Below, in pieces: positions 22,347-28,698 of a stretch of 64,000 bases of DNA (within the stretch, counting starts at the first letter, position 1; the number at the start of each line of letters is the position of its first letter). The notes beneath the pieces were generated by a model, which made no database searches, was not told where the DNA came from, and was given only the letters and a program-made list of their open reading frames with translations. The translations under genes and the position numbers were made by a program. The stretch is from Gammaproteobacteria bacterium (GTDB lineage: Bacteria; Pseudomonadota; Gammaproteobacteria; Ga0077536). The stretch is from NCBI GenBank assembly GCA_963662545.2, contig CAXXLL010000002.1, positions 480,001 to 544,000 on the forward strand, read 5' to 3'.

Positions 22347-23840
22347 TCAACGCATGGCGCGGTGCTCGCCGATTTTGCGCAAATCAAATATCAACTGCCG
22401 CGAAGCCGCGCGTTCTTCCTCGGTCATCGACGCCGCCGCGGCCTGCCTCGCATGCCGGACCGCACGGCGTACCGCACCCTCGTCGACCGCGCGTCGCGCT
22501 ATCGACAGGAAGTAAGTATGGAGAATACCCATGCCATTGCGGGCTTGTTCGTTATCGGCATCGATCTCGAGTACACGGCGCAGTCGGGCTAGCGCGTTGT
22601 CGTCGCCGGGGCCGATGAATCGCGCCTCACCCAAGTCCCGCCACGCATCCTGCAATAAGCGGTCCACGTCATCACCCTGATCGACCGGCGATTCGGGGGT
22701 GAATGCATCAGCCTGAAACGAGATCGCGGACCGCATGGCATCCGCGTCTATCACCGGCGGTTGATAAGTGGTGACCCAGGCGGCGAGACCCGCTACCGCT
22801 GCAATCGGTACCGCTGCTTTCAGTAATCGCGTGCCGCGCCACCGATTCCGGGTGTCCGCTGGCGGTCGTGTATCGGGGATCTCTTGCGTCGCCACAGGGC
22901 GTGCGGATGCCGCAGGGATCACCGTCGATCCGATCACGAGAAGTTCGCCTTCGAGTTCGCGCTTCCATCCGGCCAGGTCCTGCGGCCGTTTTTCTTCGCG
23001 AAATGACAGGGCGCGATCGATGGCGCATAGAAACTCGACGCTGTAACGCTCCGCTGCGGCGCGTGTCGCGGGCACATAGGGATCATCGGCTCCGCTCAAC
23101 AGGGCCTCGCTGCGCGCGATTGCATCGCACGGAACCGTTCCAACGGTTGCGCGGTACAGGGTTGCCCCGAGCCCGTAGATGTCCGTCCATGGTCCCTGTT
23201 TGTCGCTGCGCGCATAGTATTGCTCGAACGGCGCATAGCCCGGCGAAACCAGGGTCGTCAGTGTGCGCGCCGTGACACCTTCGGTCCGCCGCGCGGAGCC
23301 GAAATCGAGCAATACGGGAGAGTGGTCTTTCCGAATGTAGATGTTGCCGGGCTTGATGTCGCGATGGGTGAACCCAGCGGCGTGTACCACGCCGAGGCCA
23401 TCCAGGATCGGCAAGACCATCTTCTTGAGCCAGTTCTCGTCAAGCGTTGCGCCGCGGTCGAGTATTTCGCTGAGGCTCGATCCGTCCTCGTAACGCATGA
23501 CCATGTATGCGGTCCGGTTCATTTCGAAAACTGAAAACACGCTGACGATATTCGGGTGTTCGAATCGTGACAGCGTCTGCGCTTCGGTGATGAATCGATT
23601 CAAACCCCAACGGAAGTCCTTGCGGTGACTTTTCGTAAAGGGCACCACGTCGTCATCGGTATTTCGCCAGCATAGATCGGTCGGCAGGTATTCCTTGATG
23701 GCGACCGGTTGGCTCAAGTTCGCGTCATGGGCGAGGTAGGTGATGCCGAATCCACCCTGGCCAAGAACGCCGTGGATCGTATACCGCTGAATGATGGAGC
23801 CTGAAGGGAGCGCCTGGAAAAAGCCGCGGGACATGGTCAA
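22347..23840 (-). CDS. Membrane Ser/Thr protein kinase (Hanks type) with periplasmic TPR-like tail
   Basis: LGQGGFG, AIKE, HRDIKPGN, DFG, GYAPFEQ, TDIYG; TM segment. Confidence 0.93.
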   Translation of the reverse strand: MTMSRGFFQALPSGSIIQRYTIHGVLGQGGFGITYLAHDANLSQPVAIKEYLPTDLCWRNTDDDVVPFTKSHRKDFRWGLNRFITEAQTLSRFEHPNIVSVFSVFEMNRTAYMVMRYEDGSSLSEILDRGATLDENWLKKMVLPILDGLGVVHAAGFTHRDIKPGNIYIRKDHSPVLLDFGSARRTEGVTARTLTTLVSPGYAPFEQYYARSDKQGPWTDIYGLGATLYRATVGTVPCDAIARSEALLSGADDPYVPATRAAAERYSVEFLCAIDRALSFREEKRPQDLAGWKRELEGELLVIGSTVIPAASARPVATQEIPDTRPPADTRNRWRGTRLLKAAVPIAAVAGLAAWVTTYQPPVIDADAMRSAISFQADAFTPESPVDQGDDVDRLLQDAWRDLGEARFIGPGDDNALARLRRVLEIDADNEQARNGMGILHTYFLSIARRAVDEGAVRRAVRHARQAAAASMTEEERAASRQLIFDLRKIGEHRAMR

Positions 23841-23867: not shown

Positions 23868-24518
23868 TCAGCCTTTAACTTGCTTGGAGGTCTTGGCGGC
23901 CAGGGCGTAAAACGCGTTCGCCTGCCCGGAAATGAGCCCGGTCAGTGAGTCGATGAACGGGCGGTCCATGCGCTCGCCGGCAAGTTCGTATTTCGTGGTT
24001 CCGAGCATCAAGATGTTGCGCAGGGTAAGCGTGACGATCCCGAGCGCGAGGTCCGCCGAGACCGTAAGTGCGGCGGGTACGGTCGGCTCGATCGATAGCT
24101 TGTTGACCGTGGCGCCCGTCGCGCTCTTAAATGCCAGGCCGTGATCGAAAAGTGTCTTTCGAAGCTTGCGATAAATCGCTTCCGATCTGCAAACATGGCT
24201 CACCGACTCCCGTCCCCGGTACTCGAACGACACGATGAATGTCTGCGAGGCCACGCTGTTGTCGTCGACCAGGGACAAATTCTGTATCTCCGAAGTTTTC
24301 AGCATGCCAATCTCGCCGAGATTGAAATCGTTTTTGAATTTCAGCGGTGCGCTCTGGTGATCAATGACGAAAGCGGCCAGCGTGCGTCGCGCCAGTACCA
24401 TACGCGGTTCGCGTTCGGCGCTCTTGGCCGAACCGCGGGAAATAACGCGCGTTTCCGCGCGTGATACGGGCTCAGTCGTCGGTTCCCATCGTTCAGGAAC
24501 GGTCTTTTTGTCAGACAT
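23868..24518 (-). CDS. Hypothetical protein co-oriented with the kinase
   Basis: GAGG RBS, ATG 24518, 216 aa. Confidence 0.65.
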   Translation of the reverse strand: MSDKKTVPERWEPTTEPVSRAETRVISRGSAKSAEREPRMVLARRTLAAFVIDHQSAPLKFKNDFNLGEIGMLKTSEIQNLSLVDDNSVASQTFIVSFEYRGRESVSHVCRSEAIYRKLRKTLFDHGLAFKSATGATVNKLSIEPTVPAALTVSADLALGIVTLTLRNILMLGTTKYELAGERMDRPFIDSLTGLISGQANAFYALAAKTSKQVKG

Positions 24519-24615
24519 CGCGTGGCACCTCGAAGTGCCGGCTGAGCCTCGAACCCGATCTATCGGCCGGCGTTGAACAAATTTGAACCCAATGAGACAT
24601 AGCACTATTGATTAG

Positions 24616-24884: not shown

Positions 24885-26156
24885 ATGGTCGGCTATTCCC
24901 ATTCGAGATACCCGTCCGTGTCGATTGTACAAGCGCTTACCGGACTCGTCGTCTTTCATGTCGGCCTCTGGCTGTTGAGCGAAGACCGAACCCGCGTCAA
25001 ATGGTCCATTGCCGCCGCCGCCCTCGGTCTGCAGATCGTCCTCGCCCTCGTTTTCGTCAGGTGGCCGCCGGCGGCACATGTCTTCGATCTCGTGAGCGGT
25101 CTGATGACGGCCCTGCAAAAGGCGAGCGCAGCCGGGACGCGCTTCGTGTTTGGCTTTCTCGGCGGCGGCCCGGCGCCCTATGCAGTGGTCGAACCGGGCG
25201 CGACCTACGTGCTTGCGCTCCAGGCCCTGCCGCTCATCATTGTGGTGAGCGCGCTGACCCGCGTGCTGACCCATTGGCGAGTCCTGCCGGCACTAGTCCG
25301 CTTGGGCTCGCTGACGCTCGAGCGTCTGCTGGGGATCGGCGGCGCATTGGGCCTTTCCGCAGCCGCCAATCTATTGGTCGGCATGACCGAAGCACCGTTG
25401 GTTGTGCGTCCCTATCTCGGCCGCATGAGCCGGAGTGAATTGTTCGCGCTCATGTCGACCGGCATGGCGACCATCGCCGGCTCCGTATTTGTTCTCTATG
25501 CGACTATCCTGGCGCCCTTGGTGCCGAATGCCCCCGGTCACCTGCTGGCCGCGTCGCTCATGAGCTTACCGGCGGCTATTGCTTACAGCCTGATCCTGAT
25601 CCCCCCCACCGTGCTGACCGGCGCAGACATCGACGCCGGGCGCGAAGACAGCGGCACTTTCGACGCCTTGACTCGAGGGACCTTCCAGGGCTTGCAGCTC
25701 TACCTCAATATCGTCGCCATGTTGCTGGTGCTGGTTGCACTCGTCCACCTGCTCAACATGGGTCTGGGCTTGATCGACTTGACCGGTTCCCCGCTCAGCC
25801 TCGAACGCATGCTCGGATGGATCCTGGCGCCGGTATGCTGGCTCATGGGTATTCCCTGGGGCGAGGCAGCGGCGGCCGGCGCCCTGATGGGGACCAAGGT
25901 CGTGCTGAACGAACTCATCGCCTACGTTAACCTCACCCAGTTACCCGCCGCCACCCTGAGTAAGGATTCGGAGCTCGTTATGACCTACGCGTTGTGCGGG
26001 TTCGCGAATTTCGGCAGTCTCGGCATGCTTGTCGGCGGGCTGAGCCTGCTGGTGCCGGAGCGCCGCGAGGAAATACTGGAACTCGGTTTGCGGTCCATCG
26101 TGGTCGGAACGCTCGCCACGTGTACAACGGGGGCAATCGTCGGCCTGGTCGCCTGA
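24885..26156 (+). CDS. NupC/CNT nucleoside transporter
   Basis: GMTEAPL, GMATIAGSV, GTKVVLNE, YALCGFANFGS. Confidence 0.93.
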   Translation: MVGYSHSRYPSVSIVQALTGLVVFHVGLWLLSEDRTRVKWSIAAAALGLQIVLALVFVRWPPAAHVFDLVSGLMTALQKASAAGTRFVFGFLGGGPAPYAVVEPGATYVLALQALPLIIVVSALTRVLTHWRVLPALVRLGSLTLERLLGIGGALGLSAAANLLVGMTEAPLVVRPYLGRMSRSELFALMSTGMATIAGSVFVLYATILAPLVPNAPGHLLAASLMSLPAAIAYSLILIPPTVLTGADIDAGREDSGTFDALTRGTFQGLQLYLNIVAMLLVLVALVHLLNMGLGLIDLTGSPLSLERMLGWILAPVCWLMGIPWGEAAAAGALMGTKVVLNELIAYVNLTQLPAATLSKDSELVMTYALCGFANFGSLGMLVGGLSLLVPERREEILELGLRSIVVGTLATCTTGAIVGLVA

Positions 26157-26308
26157 GTCGTTGTCCGACGGCGAACGAGATTCTGATTTGATCGCTTGCG
26201 GCCGACAAGATGCGACGCGGATAAACGCGTCGCTATTTTCGTCGTTAAAATGGTCGAACGGCGGATCGATCATTAAGATTCGCGAGTCAGTTCCCGTAGG
26301 ATTAGGCG

Positions 26309-26533
26309 ATGGATGAAACCACACGACTCGGCACGCTCTGGTCGCAAACCTTGATGGACGTCTTGTGCATTGCCGTGCGGCAGCAGAAGGAGGAGAAAGC
26401 ACGAGAGGTGTTGAAAGAAATGCGGGTAAAGCGCTATCGCAAGGACCAAATTAGGAAGTATGCCGCCAAGAACCTGGAACCAGCCGAAGTCGTGTTTCTC
26501 GAACGTCTATTGAAGTCTTTGAGCGGCAAATGA
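26309..26533 (+). CDS. Small basic hypothetical protein
   Basis: 74-aa helical ORF. Confidence 0.55.
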   Translation: MDETTRLGTLWSQTLMDVLCIAVRQQKEEKAREVLKEMRVKRYRKDQIRKYAAKNLEPAEVVFLERLLKSLSGK

Positions 26534-27117
26534 GTTCGCGCCCATTGCGACGGCGGTCGCGAAACGCCGCGGTCGACGGCCAGCCGGGGTCCATTCGCCC
26601 GCGGGATGTTAGCCCGCCTATTTCACGAAGGCGGCCGTAGCGCTCGGAGAAGTTGTTGAGTAAACAGGATTAAGCACGTCATTCGACGAGGTTCGAACCA
26701 GTCGCAATTTGTACGCCCCGCATGCGGCCTACGACGGCACCGGCTGGTCCATGCACGCCTGGACTCAGATCAAGCTCGCGCCATAACTACGACTGTGACG
26801 AGAGCTCCAGACCGGCTTCTTCGTGCGCAATCCCCGCTCCGCTCGAAGTCCAGCCGGGCCATCCATGGCCCGTCGTTCGCGGTTGCGCCGCTCATACAGA
26901 TGCACCTGTCCTCAGCCGCCATCCGCCGTCCGCCGTCCTTCATGCAATAGGCGGGCTAGCCTTCAAAGGCCTCAGGAGTCCGCTAGCGGGCGAATGAAGC
27001 GATCCGAGGGACCGCACTATGCGGTCTATGATCCAGGAAACCCGGTGTATTTCTCGCGGCGGATCGGGGGCGACAAGCGTGGAAGTCAGATTCAACAGCG
27101 TTTAGACTTGAATCGAT

Positions 27118-27801
27118 ATGAGCGGAAAAGCCTACATTATCGGCCGGGCCGGCGATATCACGCTGTACGACGATACCGTGTCGCGCCAACACGCGAGTCT
27201 CGAAATCGACGATGACAGGCTATATCTCAAGGATCTCGATTCGCGCAATGGCACCTACGAAATCCGGGAAAAGAAGCTCGTGCCTTTCACCGCCGGGCTG
27301 GTCACCTCGGACCAGGTTTTCGCTTTTGGCGAATGTGTTCGGAGCGTTGCGCAATTACTGAAAATGATTGAAAGCGCCACCGACGGTTCGCCGACGATGG
27401 GGGACGGCAATGAGGACGATCCGTTGGATGCGACTCAGATCGGGTTCAGTATCGCGCCACGCAAGCGCCTGACATCGGCAAACATCATCGAGATGTTGGA
27501 GCAAGCCGAGGACGATGCGGCGGACGGGAAGTCGTTGCACGAGATCTGTGAAGCGCTTGGAATTACCAAACAACGCTACGAGCGCTGGTGCAAGGAGTAT
27601 GGGGAGACACGCGCGGAACGCGAGGAAACGACGGTAGCGCTACGCCGCGAGAACGAACGCCTGCGTAAAATCGTCGCGGACCTGTCGCTTGAACGGGACG
27701 TGCTAAAGGACGCCTCGCGGCCTTCGACCGAGACGACTGGCGAGGACCCCGACAATCCCGCGTCCCCGAACCTTTCGATCGTCAGCGACTCAAAGCCGTA
27801 A
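27118..27801 (+). CDS. FHA domain fused to IS3-OrfA-like HTH/leucine zipper
   Basis: IIGR..VSRQHA..DLDSRNGT; C-terminal ICEALGIT..YERWCKEYG..ENERLRKIVADLSLERDVLK. Confidence 0.85.
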   Translation: MSGKAYIIGRAGDITLYDDTVSRQHASLEIDDDRLYLKDLDSRNGTYEIREKKLVPFTAGLVTSDQVFAFGECVRSVAQLLKMIESATDGSPTMGDGNEDDPLDATQIGFSIAPRKRLTSANIIEMLEQAEDDAADGKSLHEICEALGITKQRYERWCKEYGETRAEREETTVALRRENERLRKIVADLSLERDVLKDASRPSTETTGEDPDNPASPNLSIVSDSKP

Positions 27802-27831
27802 ACGCCGCTGCGGGTCGCGACAGCACCACGC

Positions 27832-28698
27832 TCACACAGGCTTTTCGCCGAGATGCACCGCTCGACGGGCCGCACCATTCGACGCGTGGGGCGTGCGTAG
27901 CACGCCGTCATTCTGTTTCTCCATTTCTCGTGCTTCATCCGCGAGGCGCGCGGCGGCGCGCATCATTTCGTGGCCCGCGGCGACCAGCGGCACGTAGTTC
28001 CCCGGATCCTGTTCGACAAAGCAGCCCTTGGTTGTCACGGCCGCCACGGATTCGGCAATCTTGAGTGCCGCATACGCCTTGGCTCCCGCGTAGGGATTCG
28101 AGAATTCACCGGCGGCGACGGCTTTCTCGGCGGTGACGATCATGGTCGGCATGTCCGGGGTGTCCCCGGCTTTCAGCGCTTCGATCACGGCGTCGAGTTC
28201 CCTCTGAACGACGCGAAAAGCCCCGGTCGCGGCGAGTAGGCGAATGACGTCACTGTTGAACAAGGCCATCTCGGTGGCGTCGAGAAACTCTCGCCGCGCG
28301 CCGATCATGGGATCGGCGGGAAAGATGAAAAATCCCAGGCCGGGCGGGACGTTCGGCACCTGTTTACCTTGCTCGTTTTTTTTGAAAAACGCTTTTTTTG
28401 ACGGCGCATCGCCGAGCGCAATCGTCGCGACGCCGGTCTCGATCAAAGCCTCGCGGGCCCGCGTCGGGCCCGGCAGGGACGCGTTTGGGCTGACCAGCAG
28501 GACGAGATTGGCCTCGTAAGCCAGACAGTCGGCCGTCGGGCCCTCGCAGGCATCGGGATCGAGCTTCGCGCCGCTGGTAAAGGCCCGCGTTTCGAGATCC
28601 TCGCGGTCCGCACGTTCGTCAACCAAGAGGTCGAGAAGGGGCGCCGCGCCGATGCAGCCCAGTTTAAGGACGGCGAGTTTGAACACGCTGTCAGGCAT
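27832..28698 (-). CDS. mtd: F420-dependent methylene-H4MPT dehydrogenase (archaeal Mtd family)
   Basis: DERADRED, SPNASLPGP, DPMIGARREFLD..EMALFN, NPYA, GCFVEQD, HEMMR, EKQNDGVLRTPH. Confidence 0.9.
   Translation of the reverse strand: MPDSVFKLAVLKLGCIGAAPLLDLLVDERADREDLETRAFTSGAKLDPDACEGPTADCLAYEANLVLLVSPNASLPGPTRAREALIETGVATIALGDAPSKKAFFKKNEQGKQVPNVPPGLGFFIFPADPMIGARREFLDATEMALFNSDVIRLLAATGAFRVVQRELDAVIEALKAGDTPDMPTMIVTAEKAVAAGEFSNPYAGAKAYAALKIAESVAAVTTKGCFVEQDPGNYVPLVAAGHEMMRAAARLADEAREMEKQNDGVLRTPHASNGAARRAVHLGEKPV

What the first reader, a model, noticed from the sequence alone, without database searches (positions are those of the whole stretch)
27118..27801. FHA domain fused to a domesticated IS3-family OrfA DNA-binding module
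Seen: an N-terminal FHA domain (GR, SRQH, SRNGT), an acidic linker with the Thr-containing DPLDATQIG, then a C-terminus matching IS3/IS407 OrfA along its length (II..L..AE..GKSL.EIC..LGI...Y.RW.KEYG...L..EN.RL.K.VADLSL...LK). I see no OrfB, no slippery A-run after the zipper and no IS ends. A membrane Ser/Thr kinase lies 3.3 kb away. Established: FHA domains bind phosphothreonine; OrfA binds IS inverted repeats and can repress transposition. Inference: an exapted transposase HTH acting as a phospho-controlled transcription factor or IS repressor, possibly the output of the nearby kinase.
Basis: partly seen in the sequence, partly recalled or inferred. Interest (0 to 1): 0.78.

Follow-up and report, generated by a model that had tools for sequence, protein, structure and literature searches.

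The report
FHA domain fused to captured transposase HTH
A conserved single-copy bacterial gene joins a phosphothreonine-reading FHA domain to the DNA-binding and dimerising part of an insertion-sequence protein, so it is probably a host regulator built from a captured transposon module, but it is not tied to the kinase gene that happens to lie nearby.

Summary
Window 27118-27801 (+) encodes a 227-aa protein. It has an FHA domain (45.2 bits), a disordered linker with a conserved D-x-T motif (T106 in 88 of 92 homologues), and a complete IS3-type OrfA module of HTH plus leucine zipper (HTH_Tnp_1 30.7 bits; 42% gapless identity to a genuine IS3 OrfA in the same genome). There is no OrfB, no slippery run and no IS ends.

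The fusion is not an assembly artefact. It occurs in 22 of 81 genomes (7 of 18 genera) of one uncultured gammaproteobacterial family, at a fixed locus next to an Mtd-like gene and HiPIP. The HTH (dN/dS 0.09) and zipper (0.05) are as constrained as the FHA domain (0.10). All fusion C-termini form one branch against free OrfAs, consistent with one capture. The HTH-zipper half is predicted to homodimerise.

The kinase link is not supported. No kinase is near the gene in any relative, and these genomes hold 13-17 Hanks-kinase matches each. A role in controlling IS3 elements is not excluded.

Best reading: a dimeric, phosphothreonine-controlled DNA-binding regulator derived from an IS3 OrfA, with unknown targets. 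No publication was found.

The parts
27118..27801 (+). Whole gene, 227 aa plus stop: FHA - linker - OrfA-type HTH - leucine zipper - tail
   Evidence: ORF list; Pfam and NCBIfam; 93 homologous clusters
27118..27381 (+). FHA domain, residues 1-88: beta-sandwich 4-76 plus helix 77-88, with the signature residues G9 R10 S22 H25 N44
   Evidence: Pfam 45.2 bits; invariant residues; AF2 model; Foldseek hits to FHA structures such as CT664, FhaA and GarA; dN/dS 0.100 for residues 1-85
27382..27456 (+). Disordered, acidic, variable linker (residues 89-113) holding the conserved motif [LF]103-D104-[AS]105-T106. The T106 codon is 27433-27435. It is a candidate phospho-acceptor
   Evidence: pLDDT below 50 for residues 91-109; T106 in 88 of 92 and D104 in 76 of 92; dN/dS 0.339 for residues 86-113
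27457..27612 (+). IS3 OrfA-type helix-turn-helix, residues 114-165 (helices 120-135, 140-147, 151-161)
   Evidence: HTH_Tnp_1 30.7 bits; 42% gapless identity to the resident IS3 OrfA; profile match to 2jn6; dN/dS 0.086
27613..27732 (+). Leucine zipper, one long helix (residues 165-205), predicted parallel homodimer interface
   Evidence: AF2 helix 165-205; homodimer score 0.53 against best control 0.00, with symmetric contacts at 175, 179, 182, 186, 189, 193, 196; dN/dS 0.048 for residues 166-200
27733..27798 (+). C-terminal tail, residues 206-227, low model confidence and partly conserved
   Evidence: Mean pLDDT of 10-residue blocks from residue 201: 63, 52, 44; dN/dS 0.092 for residues 201-227
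27080..27108 (+). Putative promoter: -35-like TGGAAG (27080-27085) and -10 TAGACT (27103-27108), ending 9 nt before the ATG, with no Shine-Dalgarno. It implies a leaderless or near-leaderless mRNA
   Evidence: Exact TAGACT lies 6-10 nt before the ATG in 18 of 20 orthologous loci (TAAACT and TAGAGT in the other two), with (T/A)TGGCG-like -35 elements at an 18-nt spacer in most. Function is inferred, not shown. The generic promoter scan found nothing at its stricter threshold

Best explanation
The gene encodes a host-retained (exapted) copy of an IS3-family OrfA, meaning its sequence-specific HTH plus its leucine zipper, placed behind a phosphothreonine-binding FHA domain and a flexible linker. 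Shown or computed here: both domains are present, the fusion is old, single-copy and positionally fixed, all parts except the linker are under strong purifying selection, and the HTH-zipper half is predicted to form a parallel coiled-coil dimer. Inferred: the dimer binds a specific DNA site as IS3 OrfA-type proteins do, and this activity is switched by Ser/Thr phosphorylation. Either the FHA domain binds the protein's own phosphorylated linker Thr106, within one chain or across the dimer, in the manner of GarA/OdhI or DgcB. Or it docks on a phosphorylated partner. The kinase is probably one of the roughly 16 Hanks-type kinases of the genome, and nothing singles out the neighbouring one. The gene has its own promoter abutting the start codon and is probably translated from a leaderless mRNA. 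The DNA targets are unknown.
For: Domains: FHA 45.2 bits and HTH_Tnp_1 30.7 bits, both over cut-off. Among 56 aligned members, 55 score for FHA and 46 for HTH_Tnp_1. FHA signature residues are invariant in 92 of 92 (R10 in 89, rest gaps), and T106 is present in 88 of 92 inside an otherwise variable linker. The model shows an FHA sandwich, a disordered linker, a three-helix HTH and a 40-residue helix. The nearest solved FHA relatives are ArnA, GarA and OdhI. OrfA origin: 42% gapless identity over 88 residues to the OrfA of a real IS3 element in the same genome, and typical ~90-aa OrfAs match at 40-45%. Conservation: 22 of 81 genomes and 7 of 18 genera of the family, near-universal within carrying genera (g13 6/6, g18 10/11, g8 2/2). 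Fixed locus: Mtd downstream in 17 of 24 loci, HiPIP in 19 of 24, HD-GYP upstream in 15 of 24. Selection, pooled over 5 independent close pairs: dN/dS is FHA 0.100, HTH 0.086, zipper 0.048, linker 0.339. Single origin: 55 fusion C-termini lie on one side of a branch against 46 OrfAs, SH-aLRT 99. Dimer: score 0.53 in three runs against best control 0.00. This mark was reached by 20 of 30 proteins solved as pairs of one chain and by 1 of 23 solved as single chains. The runs agree in at least 86% of contacts, and partner pLDDT is at least 82. IS911 OrfAB[1-149] binds its IR through the HTH as a dimer, with the zipper as a multimerisation domain (PMC2909936, passages read). The fusion is not on mobile DNA: 0 of 89 matching plasmid records cover 80% or more of the query, and there is no phage match. 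Weak hint of expression: short contigs at 99-100% identity from RNA libraries of 2 studies lie on 27330-27883.
Against: No DNA target or operator was found. The conserved upstream motifs are explained by a promoter, and the Mtd-HiPIP intergenic region shows no shared motif. No kinase, phosphatase or other signalling partner is conserved nearby. Four distant family members keep FHA and coiled coil but have no detectable HTH_Tnp_1, so DNA binding may not be essential to the wider family. T106 is not conserved in those members, and a comparable motif is seen in only 1 of 5 FHA-zinc-ribbon relatives. Residues after T106 do not obviously fit a hydrophobic +3 preference (the preference itself is recalled). 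The dimer pass may reflect likeness to solved coiled coils. RNA-library contigs do not prove transcription. Phosphorylation, phosphothreonine binding and DNA binding are all untested.
Confidence: 0.6

Rival explanations
1. Regulator of insertion-sequence activity. The protein still acts on IS3-family elements, either by occupying their terminal inverted repeats or by forming zipper heterodimers with OrfA/OrfAB. That would place transposition under Ser/Thr-kinase control.
For: The whole OrfA module, including an IS3-typical zipper, is retained at 42% gapless identity to a resident IS3 OrfA. In IS911, OrfA is a regulator of transposition and the zipper mediates multimerisation (PMC2909936, passages read). 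The window's genome is IS-rich, with 33 HTH_Tnp_1 matches. All 5 fusion-carrying genomes tested have some HTH_Tnp_1 elements, 3 to 9 matches including the fusion.
Against: The gene is fixed at one chromosomal locus and conserved across genera, while the IS content differs widely between carriers (3 to 33 matches). With the fusion as query, G019, G009 and G014 show no other OrfA-like match at E<=0.001, so no closely related IS is present there. Fusion C-termini form their own long-diverged branch.
Confidence: 0.15
2. Phospho-dependent dimeric adaptor that does not bind DNA. The OrfA part serves only as a dimerisation or protein-interaction module, and the FHA domains recruit phosphorylated partners.
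For: The zipper is the most constrained segment (dN/dS 0.048). Four distant members (P0097, P0101, P0104, P0092) keep FHA and coiled coil without detectable HTH_Tnp_1. Relatives of the same FHA module carry a zinc ribbon instead.
Against: The HTH segment is nearly as constrained (dN/dS 0.086). Its recognition-helix motif (LGI..QRY.RW) is conserved across the family and shared with true OrfAs. HTH_Tnp_1 is detected in 46 of 56 aligned members.
Confidence: 0.15
3. Dedicated output of the neighbouring membrane Ser/Thr kinase (22347..23840).
For: The kinase lies 3.3 kb away. With about 16 kinase genes in 5.58 Mb (17 Pkinase matches), my own rough estimate of chance proximity within 3.3 kb is about 2-3%.
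Against: Adjacency is not conserved: no match to this kinase in 8 loci with 4-8 kb flanks or in L035/L036. The nearest kinase is 66 kb or more away, or on another contig, in 5 whole genomes. The two genes are on opposite strands and separated by three genes and a MITE-like repeat. The best matches to this kinase in relatives cover only the kinase domain and lie in much longer frames.
Confidence: 0.1
4. Chimeric ORF created by a recent IS insertion into an FHA gene, that is, a read-through artefact or a gene in decay.
For: Such chimeras exist in the databases: six proteins share one identical IS left end and OrfA behind unrelated, truncated N-termini.
Against: The junction is the same in 92 aligned homologues. 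The fusion is conserved at 40-61% identity across genera and is under purifying selection in every domain. There is no OrfB, slippery site or IS ends, and only one copy in the genome.
Confidence: 0.01

Closest known systems
IS3-family OrfA (for example IS911 OrfA, 100 aa; Pfam HTH_Tnp_1)
   Same: N-terminal HTH followed by a leucine zipper. The match to a genuine IS3 OrfA is colinear and gapless over 88 residues. Dimerisation through the zipper is predicted, as reported for IS911 OrfAB[1-149] (PMC2909936).
   Different: No orfB, no frameshift site and no inverted repeats. It is single-copy at a fixed syntenic locus, preceded by an FHA domain and linker, and forms its own branch apart from free OrfAs.
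GarA / OdhI (actinobacterial FHA regulators)
   Same: Closest solved FHA relatives by sequence profile (E about 1e-8 to 1e-7) and among the top fold matches. They are small proteins that pair an FHA domain with a Thr-bearing flexible segment. PDB titles show phosphorylated forms (2kb3 pOdhI; 2kfu Rv1827 pThr22).
   Different: In GarA/OdhI the Thr segment is N-terminal and the output is inhibition of metabolic enzymes (recalled). Here the Thr is C-terminal to the FHA domain, and the output module is an HTH-zipper.
EmbR of Mycobacterium tuberculosis (FHA plus DNA-binding domain)
   Same: One polypeptide combines an FHA domain with a DNA-binding module. It is matched by fold through the FHA part only (2fez, rank 50; E 0.0042 by profile).
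   Different: EmbR has a winged-helix (SARP) DNA-binding domain and a BTAD, with the FHA domain at the C-terminus (recalled). It has no transposase-derived HTH and no zipper.
ArnA of Sulfolobus acidocaldarius and Bdellovibrio DgcB (FHA with another output)
   Same: ArnA is the best profile match among solved structures (5a8i, E 1.1e-8). DgcB shows an FHA domain binding the protein's own phosphorylated tail (6hc1 and 6hc0 titles). The FHA-zinc-ribbon relatives found here resemble ArnA's zinc-finger-plus-FHA make-up (recalled; PMC6509490 seen in a search listing only).
   Different: Their output modules differ (a zinc finger working with ArnB; a GGDEF cyclase), and neither is derived from a transposase.

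Membership tests
FHA domain (PF00498) | Profile match over the curated cut-off | tested here: met
   45.2 bits against 20.7; 55 of 56 aligned members match (the one without is P0100, a tandem OrfA)
FHA domain (PF00498) | Signature phosphothreonine-binding residues (G-R, S-x-x-H, N) | tested here: met
   G9/R10 in 89 of 92 (3 gaps); S22, H25 and N44 in 92 of 92. Which residues contact the phosphate is recalled knowledge
FHA domain (PF00498) | Beta-sandwich fold | tested here: met
   AF2 strands between residues 4 and 76, with pLDDT mostly 80-94; 30 Foldseek matches at E<=0.001, and the rows listed are FHA structures
FHA domain (PF00498) | Binds phosphothreonine peptides | not testable with these tools
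   Needs biochemistry
HTH_Tnp_1 / IS3-family OrfA module | Profile match over the curated cut-off and homology to real OrfAs | tested here: met
   30.7 bits against 24.1; BLASTP E 2e-22 and 42% identity to the resident IS3 OrfA; 46 of 56 members match
HTH_Tnp_1 / IS3-family OrfA module | HTH followed by a leucine zipper that multimerises | tested here: met
   Helices 120-161 plus helix 165-205; homodimer score 0.53 against best control 0.00. This is a prediction only
IS3-family insertion sequence (a mobile element) | orfB (DDE integrase core) downstream, reached by a -1 frameshift at a slippery run | tested here: not met
   No A-run of 5 or more and no OrfB match in the window. The convergent Mtd gene ends 30 bp after the stop codon. 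NCBIfam transpos_IS3 scores 43.9 bits against a cut-off of 160
IS3-family insertion sequence (a mobile element) | Terminal inverted repeats and multiple or mobile copies | tested here: not met
   Only short 72-88% inverted repeats. There is one full-length copy in the genome, the same locus is kept across genera, and the fusion is absent from plasmids and phages
   No ISfinder-type reference set was available
GarA/OdhI-type intramolecular phosphothreonine switch | Conserved phospho-acceptor Thr in a flexible segment of the same chain | tested here: inconclusive
   T106 is conserved in 88 of 92 within a disordered linker, but not in the distant members. Phosphorylation and binding within the chain cannot be tested here

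The most novel reading that the evidence does not exclude
This would be a bacterial transcription factor class in which the DNA-binding and dimerising module of an insertion-sequence regulator (IS3 OrfA) was captured once by the host and wired to Hanks-kinase signalling through an FHA domain. A conserved linker threonine would act as a built-in phospho-switch. In the bolder version the protein still recognises IS3-type ends or partners, so that Ser/Thr signalling gates transposition.
Probability: 0.4. Interest if true: 0.72.

Novelty: new variant of a known kind. Interest (0 to 1): 0.56.

Why it matters
Transposase-derived DNA-binding domains that became host transcription factors are well documented in eukaryotes, but few clear bacterial cases have been described. 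FHA-containing DNA-binding regulators in bacteria are likewise few, EmbR being the textbook one (recalled). This family would add a clean example of both: one capture event, a fixed locus, strong purifying selection on the captured module, and a plausible phospho-switch. It gives a small, tractable protein (227 aa) for asking how Hanks-kinase signalling reaches DNA in Gram-negative bacteria. It also offers a test of whether a host can put IS control under phospho-regulation. Its limits are that it is confined to one uncultured gammaproteobacterial family and that its targets are unknown.

Tried and rejected
Kinase synteny. I looked for the window's kinase beside the fusion in relatives and found none.

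Co-occurrence with the Mtd-like neighbour. Mtd is much wider (50 of 81 genomes, 14 of 18 genera) than the fusion (22 of 81). In 7 fusion-less genomes, Mtd sits in a different context without NupC, HD-GYP or HiPIP. The adjacency is therefore clade-specific gene order, not an obligate pairing.

HD-GYP. It lies directly upstream in 15 of 24 loci but is absent from the window. The gap holds no remnant, and the genome's best match is a 29% identical paralogue elsewhere.

Operator search. The upstream regions share only promoter-like hexamers. The Mtd-HiPIP intergenic region shows a terminator, a promoter and a Shine-Dalgarno but no shared motif. Rfam found nothing meaningful in 26100-28000 (one match at E 0.73). 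The generic promoter scan found no site.

Contexts of a paralogue (L137) and of a distant HTH-less copy (L136) hold no kinase, phosphatase or regulator that helps.

The related-loci scan of genome contigs was swamped by generic FHA matches and returned only 4 full-length loci.

Absence of IS elements could not be used against the IS-regulator reading, because all 5 carriers tested have some HTH_Tnp_1 matches.

dN/dS on distant pairs is unusable because synonymous sites are saturated. Of 190 pairs, I used the 5 lowest-dS pairs that share no member.

RNA evidence is limited to assembled contigs from RNA libraries, which show neither strand nor start nor level, so the leaderless start is untested.

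Literature searches for this architecture found nothing relevant: 'FHA domain' + 'HTH_Tnp_1' gave 0 papers; forkhead-associated/transposase/HTH/domesticated gave eukaryotic cases only among the 15 listed; 'HTH_Tnp_1' alone gave 10 papers, none on this by title or abstract; a search for FHA architecture surveys gave 25 papers, 15 listed, none mentioning it by title or abstract; 'FHA domain' + OrfA + transposase gave 2 unrelated papers. Subscription journals and supplementary files were not searchable.
Full report
WHAT IS THERE. The ORF at 27118..27801 (+) is real and encodes 227 residues. The frame is open for only 229 codons, so the ATG at 27118 is the only possible start. Pfam finds an FHA domain (PF00498, 45.2 bits, cut-off 20.7, residues 6-47) and HTH_Tnp_1 (PF01527, 30.7 bits, cut-off 24.1, residues 115-186). 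NCBIfam's IS3 transposase model matches residues 124-201 to its first 83 of 369 positions, at 43.9 bits against a 160-bit cut-off. Only the OrfA part of an IS3 transposase is therefore present. A BLASTP comparison with the OrfA of a genuine IS3 element elsewhere in the same genome (locus L002: a 98-aa OrfA followed by OrfB pieces) gives 42% identity over 88 residues without a gap, covering OrfA residues 8-95. The fusion thus contains an entire OrfA.

The gene has no A-run of 5 or more. No part of the window matches the resident OrfB at E<=1e-3. Only short, imperfect inverted repeats surround the gene. The convergent next gene ends 30 bp after the stop codon.

STRUCTURE. An AlphaFold2 model built on a 56-sequence alignment (mean pLDDT 79.1, pTM 0.45) shows four parts:
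- a beta-sandwich (strands between residues 4 and 76) with a helix at 77-88;
- a disordered stretch (91-109, pLDDT below 50);
- three short helices (120-135, 140-147, 151-161);
- one long helix (165-205).

Foldseek matches are FHA structures such as CT664, FhaA, MDC1, DgcB, GarA and OdhI. A profile search of PDB sequences gives ArnA, GarA and OdhI for the FHA half (E 1e-8 to 1e-7), and the transposase-like Cgl2762 (2jn6, E 0.0027) and bZIP proteins for the C-terminal half.

Two copies of residues 112-208 are predicted to pair as a parallel coiled coil. The score was 0.53 in each of three runs, against a best control of 0.00. That mark was reached by 20 of 30 proteins solved as pairs of one chain and by 1 of 23 solved as single chains. 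The runs agree in at least 86% of contacts, partner pLDDT is at least 82, and there are symmetric contacts at residues 175, 179, 182, 186, 189, 193 and 196. Coiled coils are common among solved structures, so this pass may partly reflect likeness. For IS911, the paper I read in passages states that OrfA (100 aa) regulates transposition. It also states that the N-terminal HTH gives specific binding to the inverted repeats, that the leucine zipper is a multimerisation domain, and that OrfAB[1-149] binds the repeat as a dimer (PMC2909936).

IS THE FUSION REAL AND CONSERVED? Yes.
- A word-indexed search of 5.8 billion proteins returned 93 clusters at E<=0.001. Nearly all are 210-270 aa with both Pfam domains precomputed, and sources name them 'FHA domain-containing protein' or 'transposase' from Gammaproteobacteria MAGs.
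- In whole genomes, 22 of 81 genomes of the window's family have a match at E<=1e-20. In this collection that family is the whole order. This is 7 of 18 genera: g13 6/6, g18 10/11, g8 2/2, g5 1/1, g10 1/1, g16 1/11, and in the window's own genus only the window's genome (0 of 2 others).
- The window's genome holds one full-length copy. Three relatives (G006, G023, G063) have a second, non-syntenic copy.
- No plasmid record covers 80% or more of the query (0 of 89 matching records, all matching through the OrfA half), and no phage record matches.

In an alignment of the window's protein with 91 homologues of 200-280 aa (91 of the 93 found), the FHA signature residues are invariant (S22, R23, H25, S42, N44, G45, T46 in 92 of 92; G9 and R10 in 89, the rest gaps). 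The HTH recognition region (LGI..QRY.RW) and the zipper (LRRENERLR..V.DL.LER) are strongly conserved. The linker is variable except for [LF]103-D104-[AS]105-T106, with T106 in 88 of 92 and D104 in 76 of 92.

SELECTION. I built codon alignments of 20 orthologues and computed Nei-Gojobori dN/dS. Distant pairs are saturated at synonymous sites. I therefore pooled the five closest pairs that share no member (whole-gene dS 0.23-0.62), which gave:

| Segment (residues) | dN/dS |
|---|---|
| FHA (1-85) | 0.100 |
| Linker (86-113) | 0.339 |
| HTH (114-165) | 0.086 |
| Zipper (166-200) | 0.048 |
| Tail (201-227) | 0.092 |
| Whole gene | 0.123 |

ORIGIN. In a quick maximum-likelihood tree (92 columns), the C-terminal modules of 55 fusion proteins were compared with 46 free-standing OrfAs (45 from the representative search plus the resident one). 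All fusion modules lie on one side of a single branch (SH-aLRT 99). Few columns and several long branches limit this result, but it is consistent with one capture.

A useful contrast comes from six database proteins of 155-348 aa. They carry one identical IS left end and OrfA behind unrelated, truncated N-termini, so they are read-through ORF calls at IS insertions. The FHA fusion is the opposite case: one junction kept through long divergence. In the unrestricted search of 1.84 billion representatives, no protein longer than 280 aa among the best 150 matched both halves. Long hits matched only through repeated FHA domains or only through the OrfA part.

Relatives of the same FHA module exist with a C-terminal zinc ribbon instead (five proteins of 135-148 aa). 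Four distant members of 264-273 aa keep FHA and coiled coil but have no detectable HTH_Tnp_1.

CONTEXT. Across the 24 distinct fusion loci outside the window, examined with 1.5 kb flanks, the counts are as follows:

| Neighbour | Loci (of 24) |
|---|---|
| Convergent Mtd-like gene directly downstream | 17 |
| HiPIP beyond it | 19 |
| HD-GYP gene (DUF3391 + HD_5) directly upstream, same strand, 58-75 bp away in the loci measured | 15 |
| NupC directly upstream instead, as in the window | 3 |

One locus starts at the gene. Four paralogous or distant loci share no neighbour. One contig ends just after the gene, and two loci lack Mtd.

The window lacks the HD-GYP gene. In its place, 26610-26958 holds a MITE-like repeat with 22-nt terminal inverted repeats (91% complementary). 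The genome has 27 matching stretches, including 7 further copies of 200 bp or more at 78-84% identity.

The window's kinase has no counterpart near the fusion anywhere. None appears in 8 loci with 4-8 kb flanks, nor in L035 and L036 with 7 kb flanks. In five whole genomes, each with 13-15 kinase-domain matches at E<=1e-10, the nearest one on the same contig is 66 kb or more away. The window's genome has 17 Pkinase matches, about 16 genes. By my own rough estimate the chance of lying within 3.3 kb of one is 2-3%. That is notable, but the adjacency is not conserved, and the two genes are separated by three genes and the repeat, on opposite strands.

The Mtd-like gene is much more widespread than the fusion (50 of 81 genomes). 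In 7 fusion-less genomes it sits in a different context. The adjacency is therefore a clade-specific block, not evidence of a functional pair.

PROMOTER. Upstream sequences of the orthologues are otherwise unalignable, yet TAGACT lies 6-10 nt before the ATG in 18 of 20 loci (TAAACT and TAGAGT in the other two). A (T/A)TGGCG-like element sits 18 nt further upstream in most, and there is no Shine-Dalgarno. The neighbouring Mtd gene, in contrast, has a clear GGAG-type site. In the window, TAGACT is at 27103-27108, 9 nt before the ATG. I read this as the gene's own sigma-70-type promoter giving a leaderless or near-leaderless mRNA, also where HD-GYP lies 58-75 bp upstream. This is inferred and not shown. 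These loci are kin, so the count overstates independence. Contigs from RNA libraries of two studies lie on 27330-27883 at 99-100% identity, which is a weak hint of expression and no more.

HOW IT MOST LIKELY WORKS. The captured OrfA module supplies a dimeric, sequence-specific DNA-binding unit. This is homology-based inference, with predicted support for the dimer. The FHA domain, with all signature residues intact, supplies phosphothreonine recognition by family knowledge. The single conserved Thr in a disordered acidic linker is the obvious candidate for a built-in phospho-acceptor that the FHA domain could bind within one chain or across the dimer. Solved structures show this kind of binding for OdhI/GarA and for the DgcB tail (titles; the mechanism itself is recalled). 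Phosphorylation would then change DNA binding or oligomeric state. I put this at about 0.6.

The rivals are a role on IS3 elements themselves (0.15), a dimeric adaptor that does not bind DNA (0.15), and a recent chimera (0.01). The link to the neighbouring kinase specifically is a sub-claim that I rate at 0.1. No target site could be found by footprinting. Absence of IS elements cannot be invoked against the IS rival, because all five carriers tested have some HTH_Tnp_1 matches (3-9 including the fusion; 33 in the window's genome). However, three carriers (G019, G009, G014) have no other OrfA-like match to this protein at E<=0.001.

NOVELTY. Automatic annotation already labels these proteins by their domains. 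My five literature searches found no description of an FHA plus HTH_Tnp_1 protein or of a host-captured IS3 OrfA of this kind. Subscription journals and supplements were not searchable. I class it as a new variant of known kinds: FHA signalling proteins, and transposase-derived DNA-binding domains.

Noticed in passing
window 26610-26958: MITE-like non-autonomous repeat with 22-nt terminal inverted repeats (91% complementary). The genome has 27 matching stretches, including 7 further copies of 200 bp or more at 78-84% identity. A shorter form lacks about 77 bp. It sits just upstream of the fusion gene's promoter, where relatives have an HD-GYP gene. An RNA-library contig of a diverged copy also lay here.
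   Followed up: partly
window 27832-28698 (-): A gammaproteobacterial homologue of F420-dependent methylene-tetrahydromethanopterin dehydrogenase (Pfam MTD 347.7 bits; NCBIfam equivalog 343.4 bits, over its 297 cut-off). It is found in 50 of 81 genomes of the family and is usually next to a HiPIP gene in the fusion-bearing clade. The genome also has Mch (407.9 bits) and an F420 ligase (249.3 bits), and in the control genomes these two families ring only in archaea.
   Followed up: partly
window 23868-24605 (-) and 22347-23840 (-): A 245-aa protein with no Pfam or NCBIfam match lies 27 bp upstream of the Ser/Thr kinase on the same strand, so the two look like one operon. A 43.5% identical homologue sits beside NupC in a relative (L035), with no match to the window's kinase in that locus. 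The kinase therefore looks like the lineage-specific addition.
   Followed up: partly
window 26309-26533 (+): A small 74-aa ORF after NupC is conserved at 66% identity in one relative (L025), so it is probably a real small gene. It has no family match over cut-off.
   Followed up: no
L024, L025, L026, L027 and 11 further loci: An HD-GYP-type protein (DUF3391 + HD_5, 426-462 aa in the four loci scanned) is the conserved upstream neighbour of the fusion gene in 15 of 24 loci. It is missing from the window's genome, whose best match is a 29% identical paralogue.
   Followed up: yes
proteins P0102, P0106, P0109, P0093, P0116: Relatives of the same FHA module (48-53% identity over residues 1-90 for the first four) carry a C-terminal CxxC...CxxC zinc ribbon instead of the OrfA module. 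One of them (P0116) has a PLDIT motif like the fusion's linker.
   Followed up: partly
own genome (G000), whole: The genome is rich in IS3-type OrfA genes, with 33 HTH_Tnp_1 matches, several in identical copies. Five relatives have 3-9.
   Followed up: no
proteins P0132, P0182, P0161, P0137, P0154, P0136: Six database 'proteins' are read-through ORF calls. One identical IS left end and OrfA sit behind unrelated, truncated host N-termini, which warns against trusting X + OrfA architectures in metagenome protein sets.
   Followed up: yes
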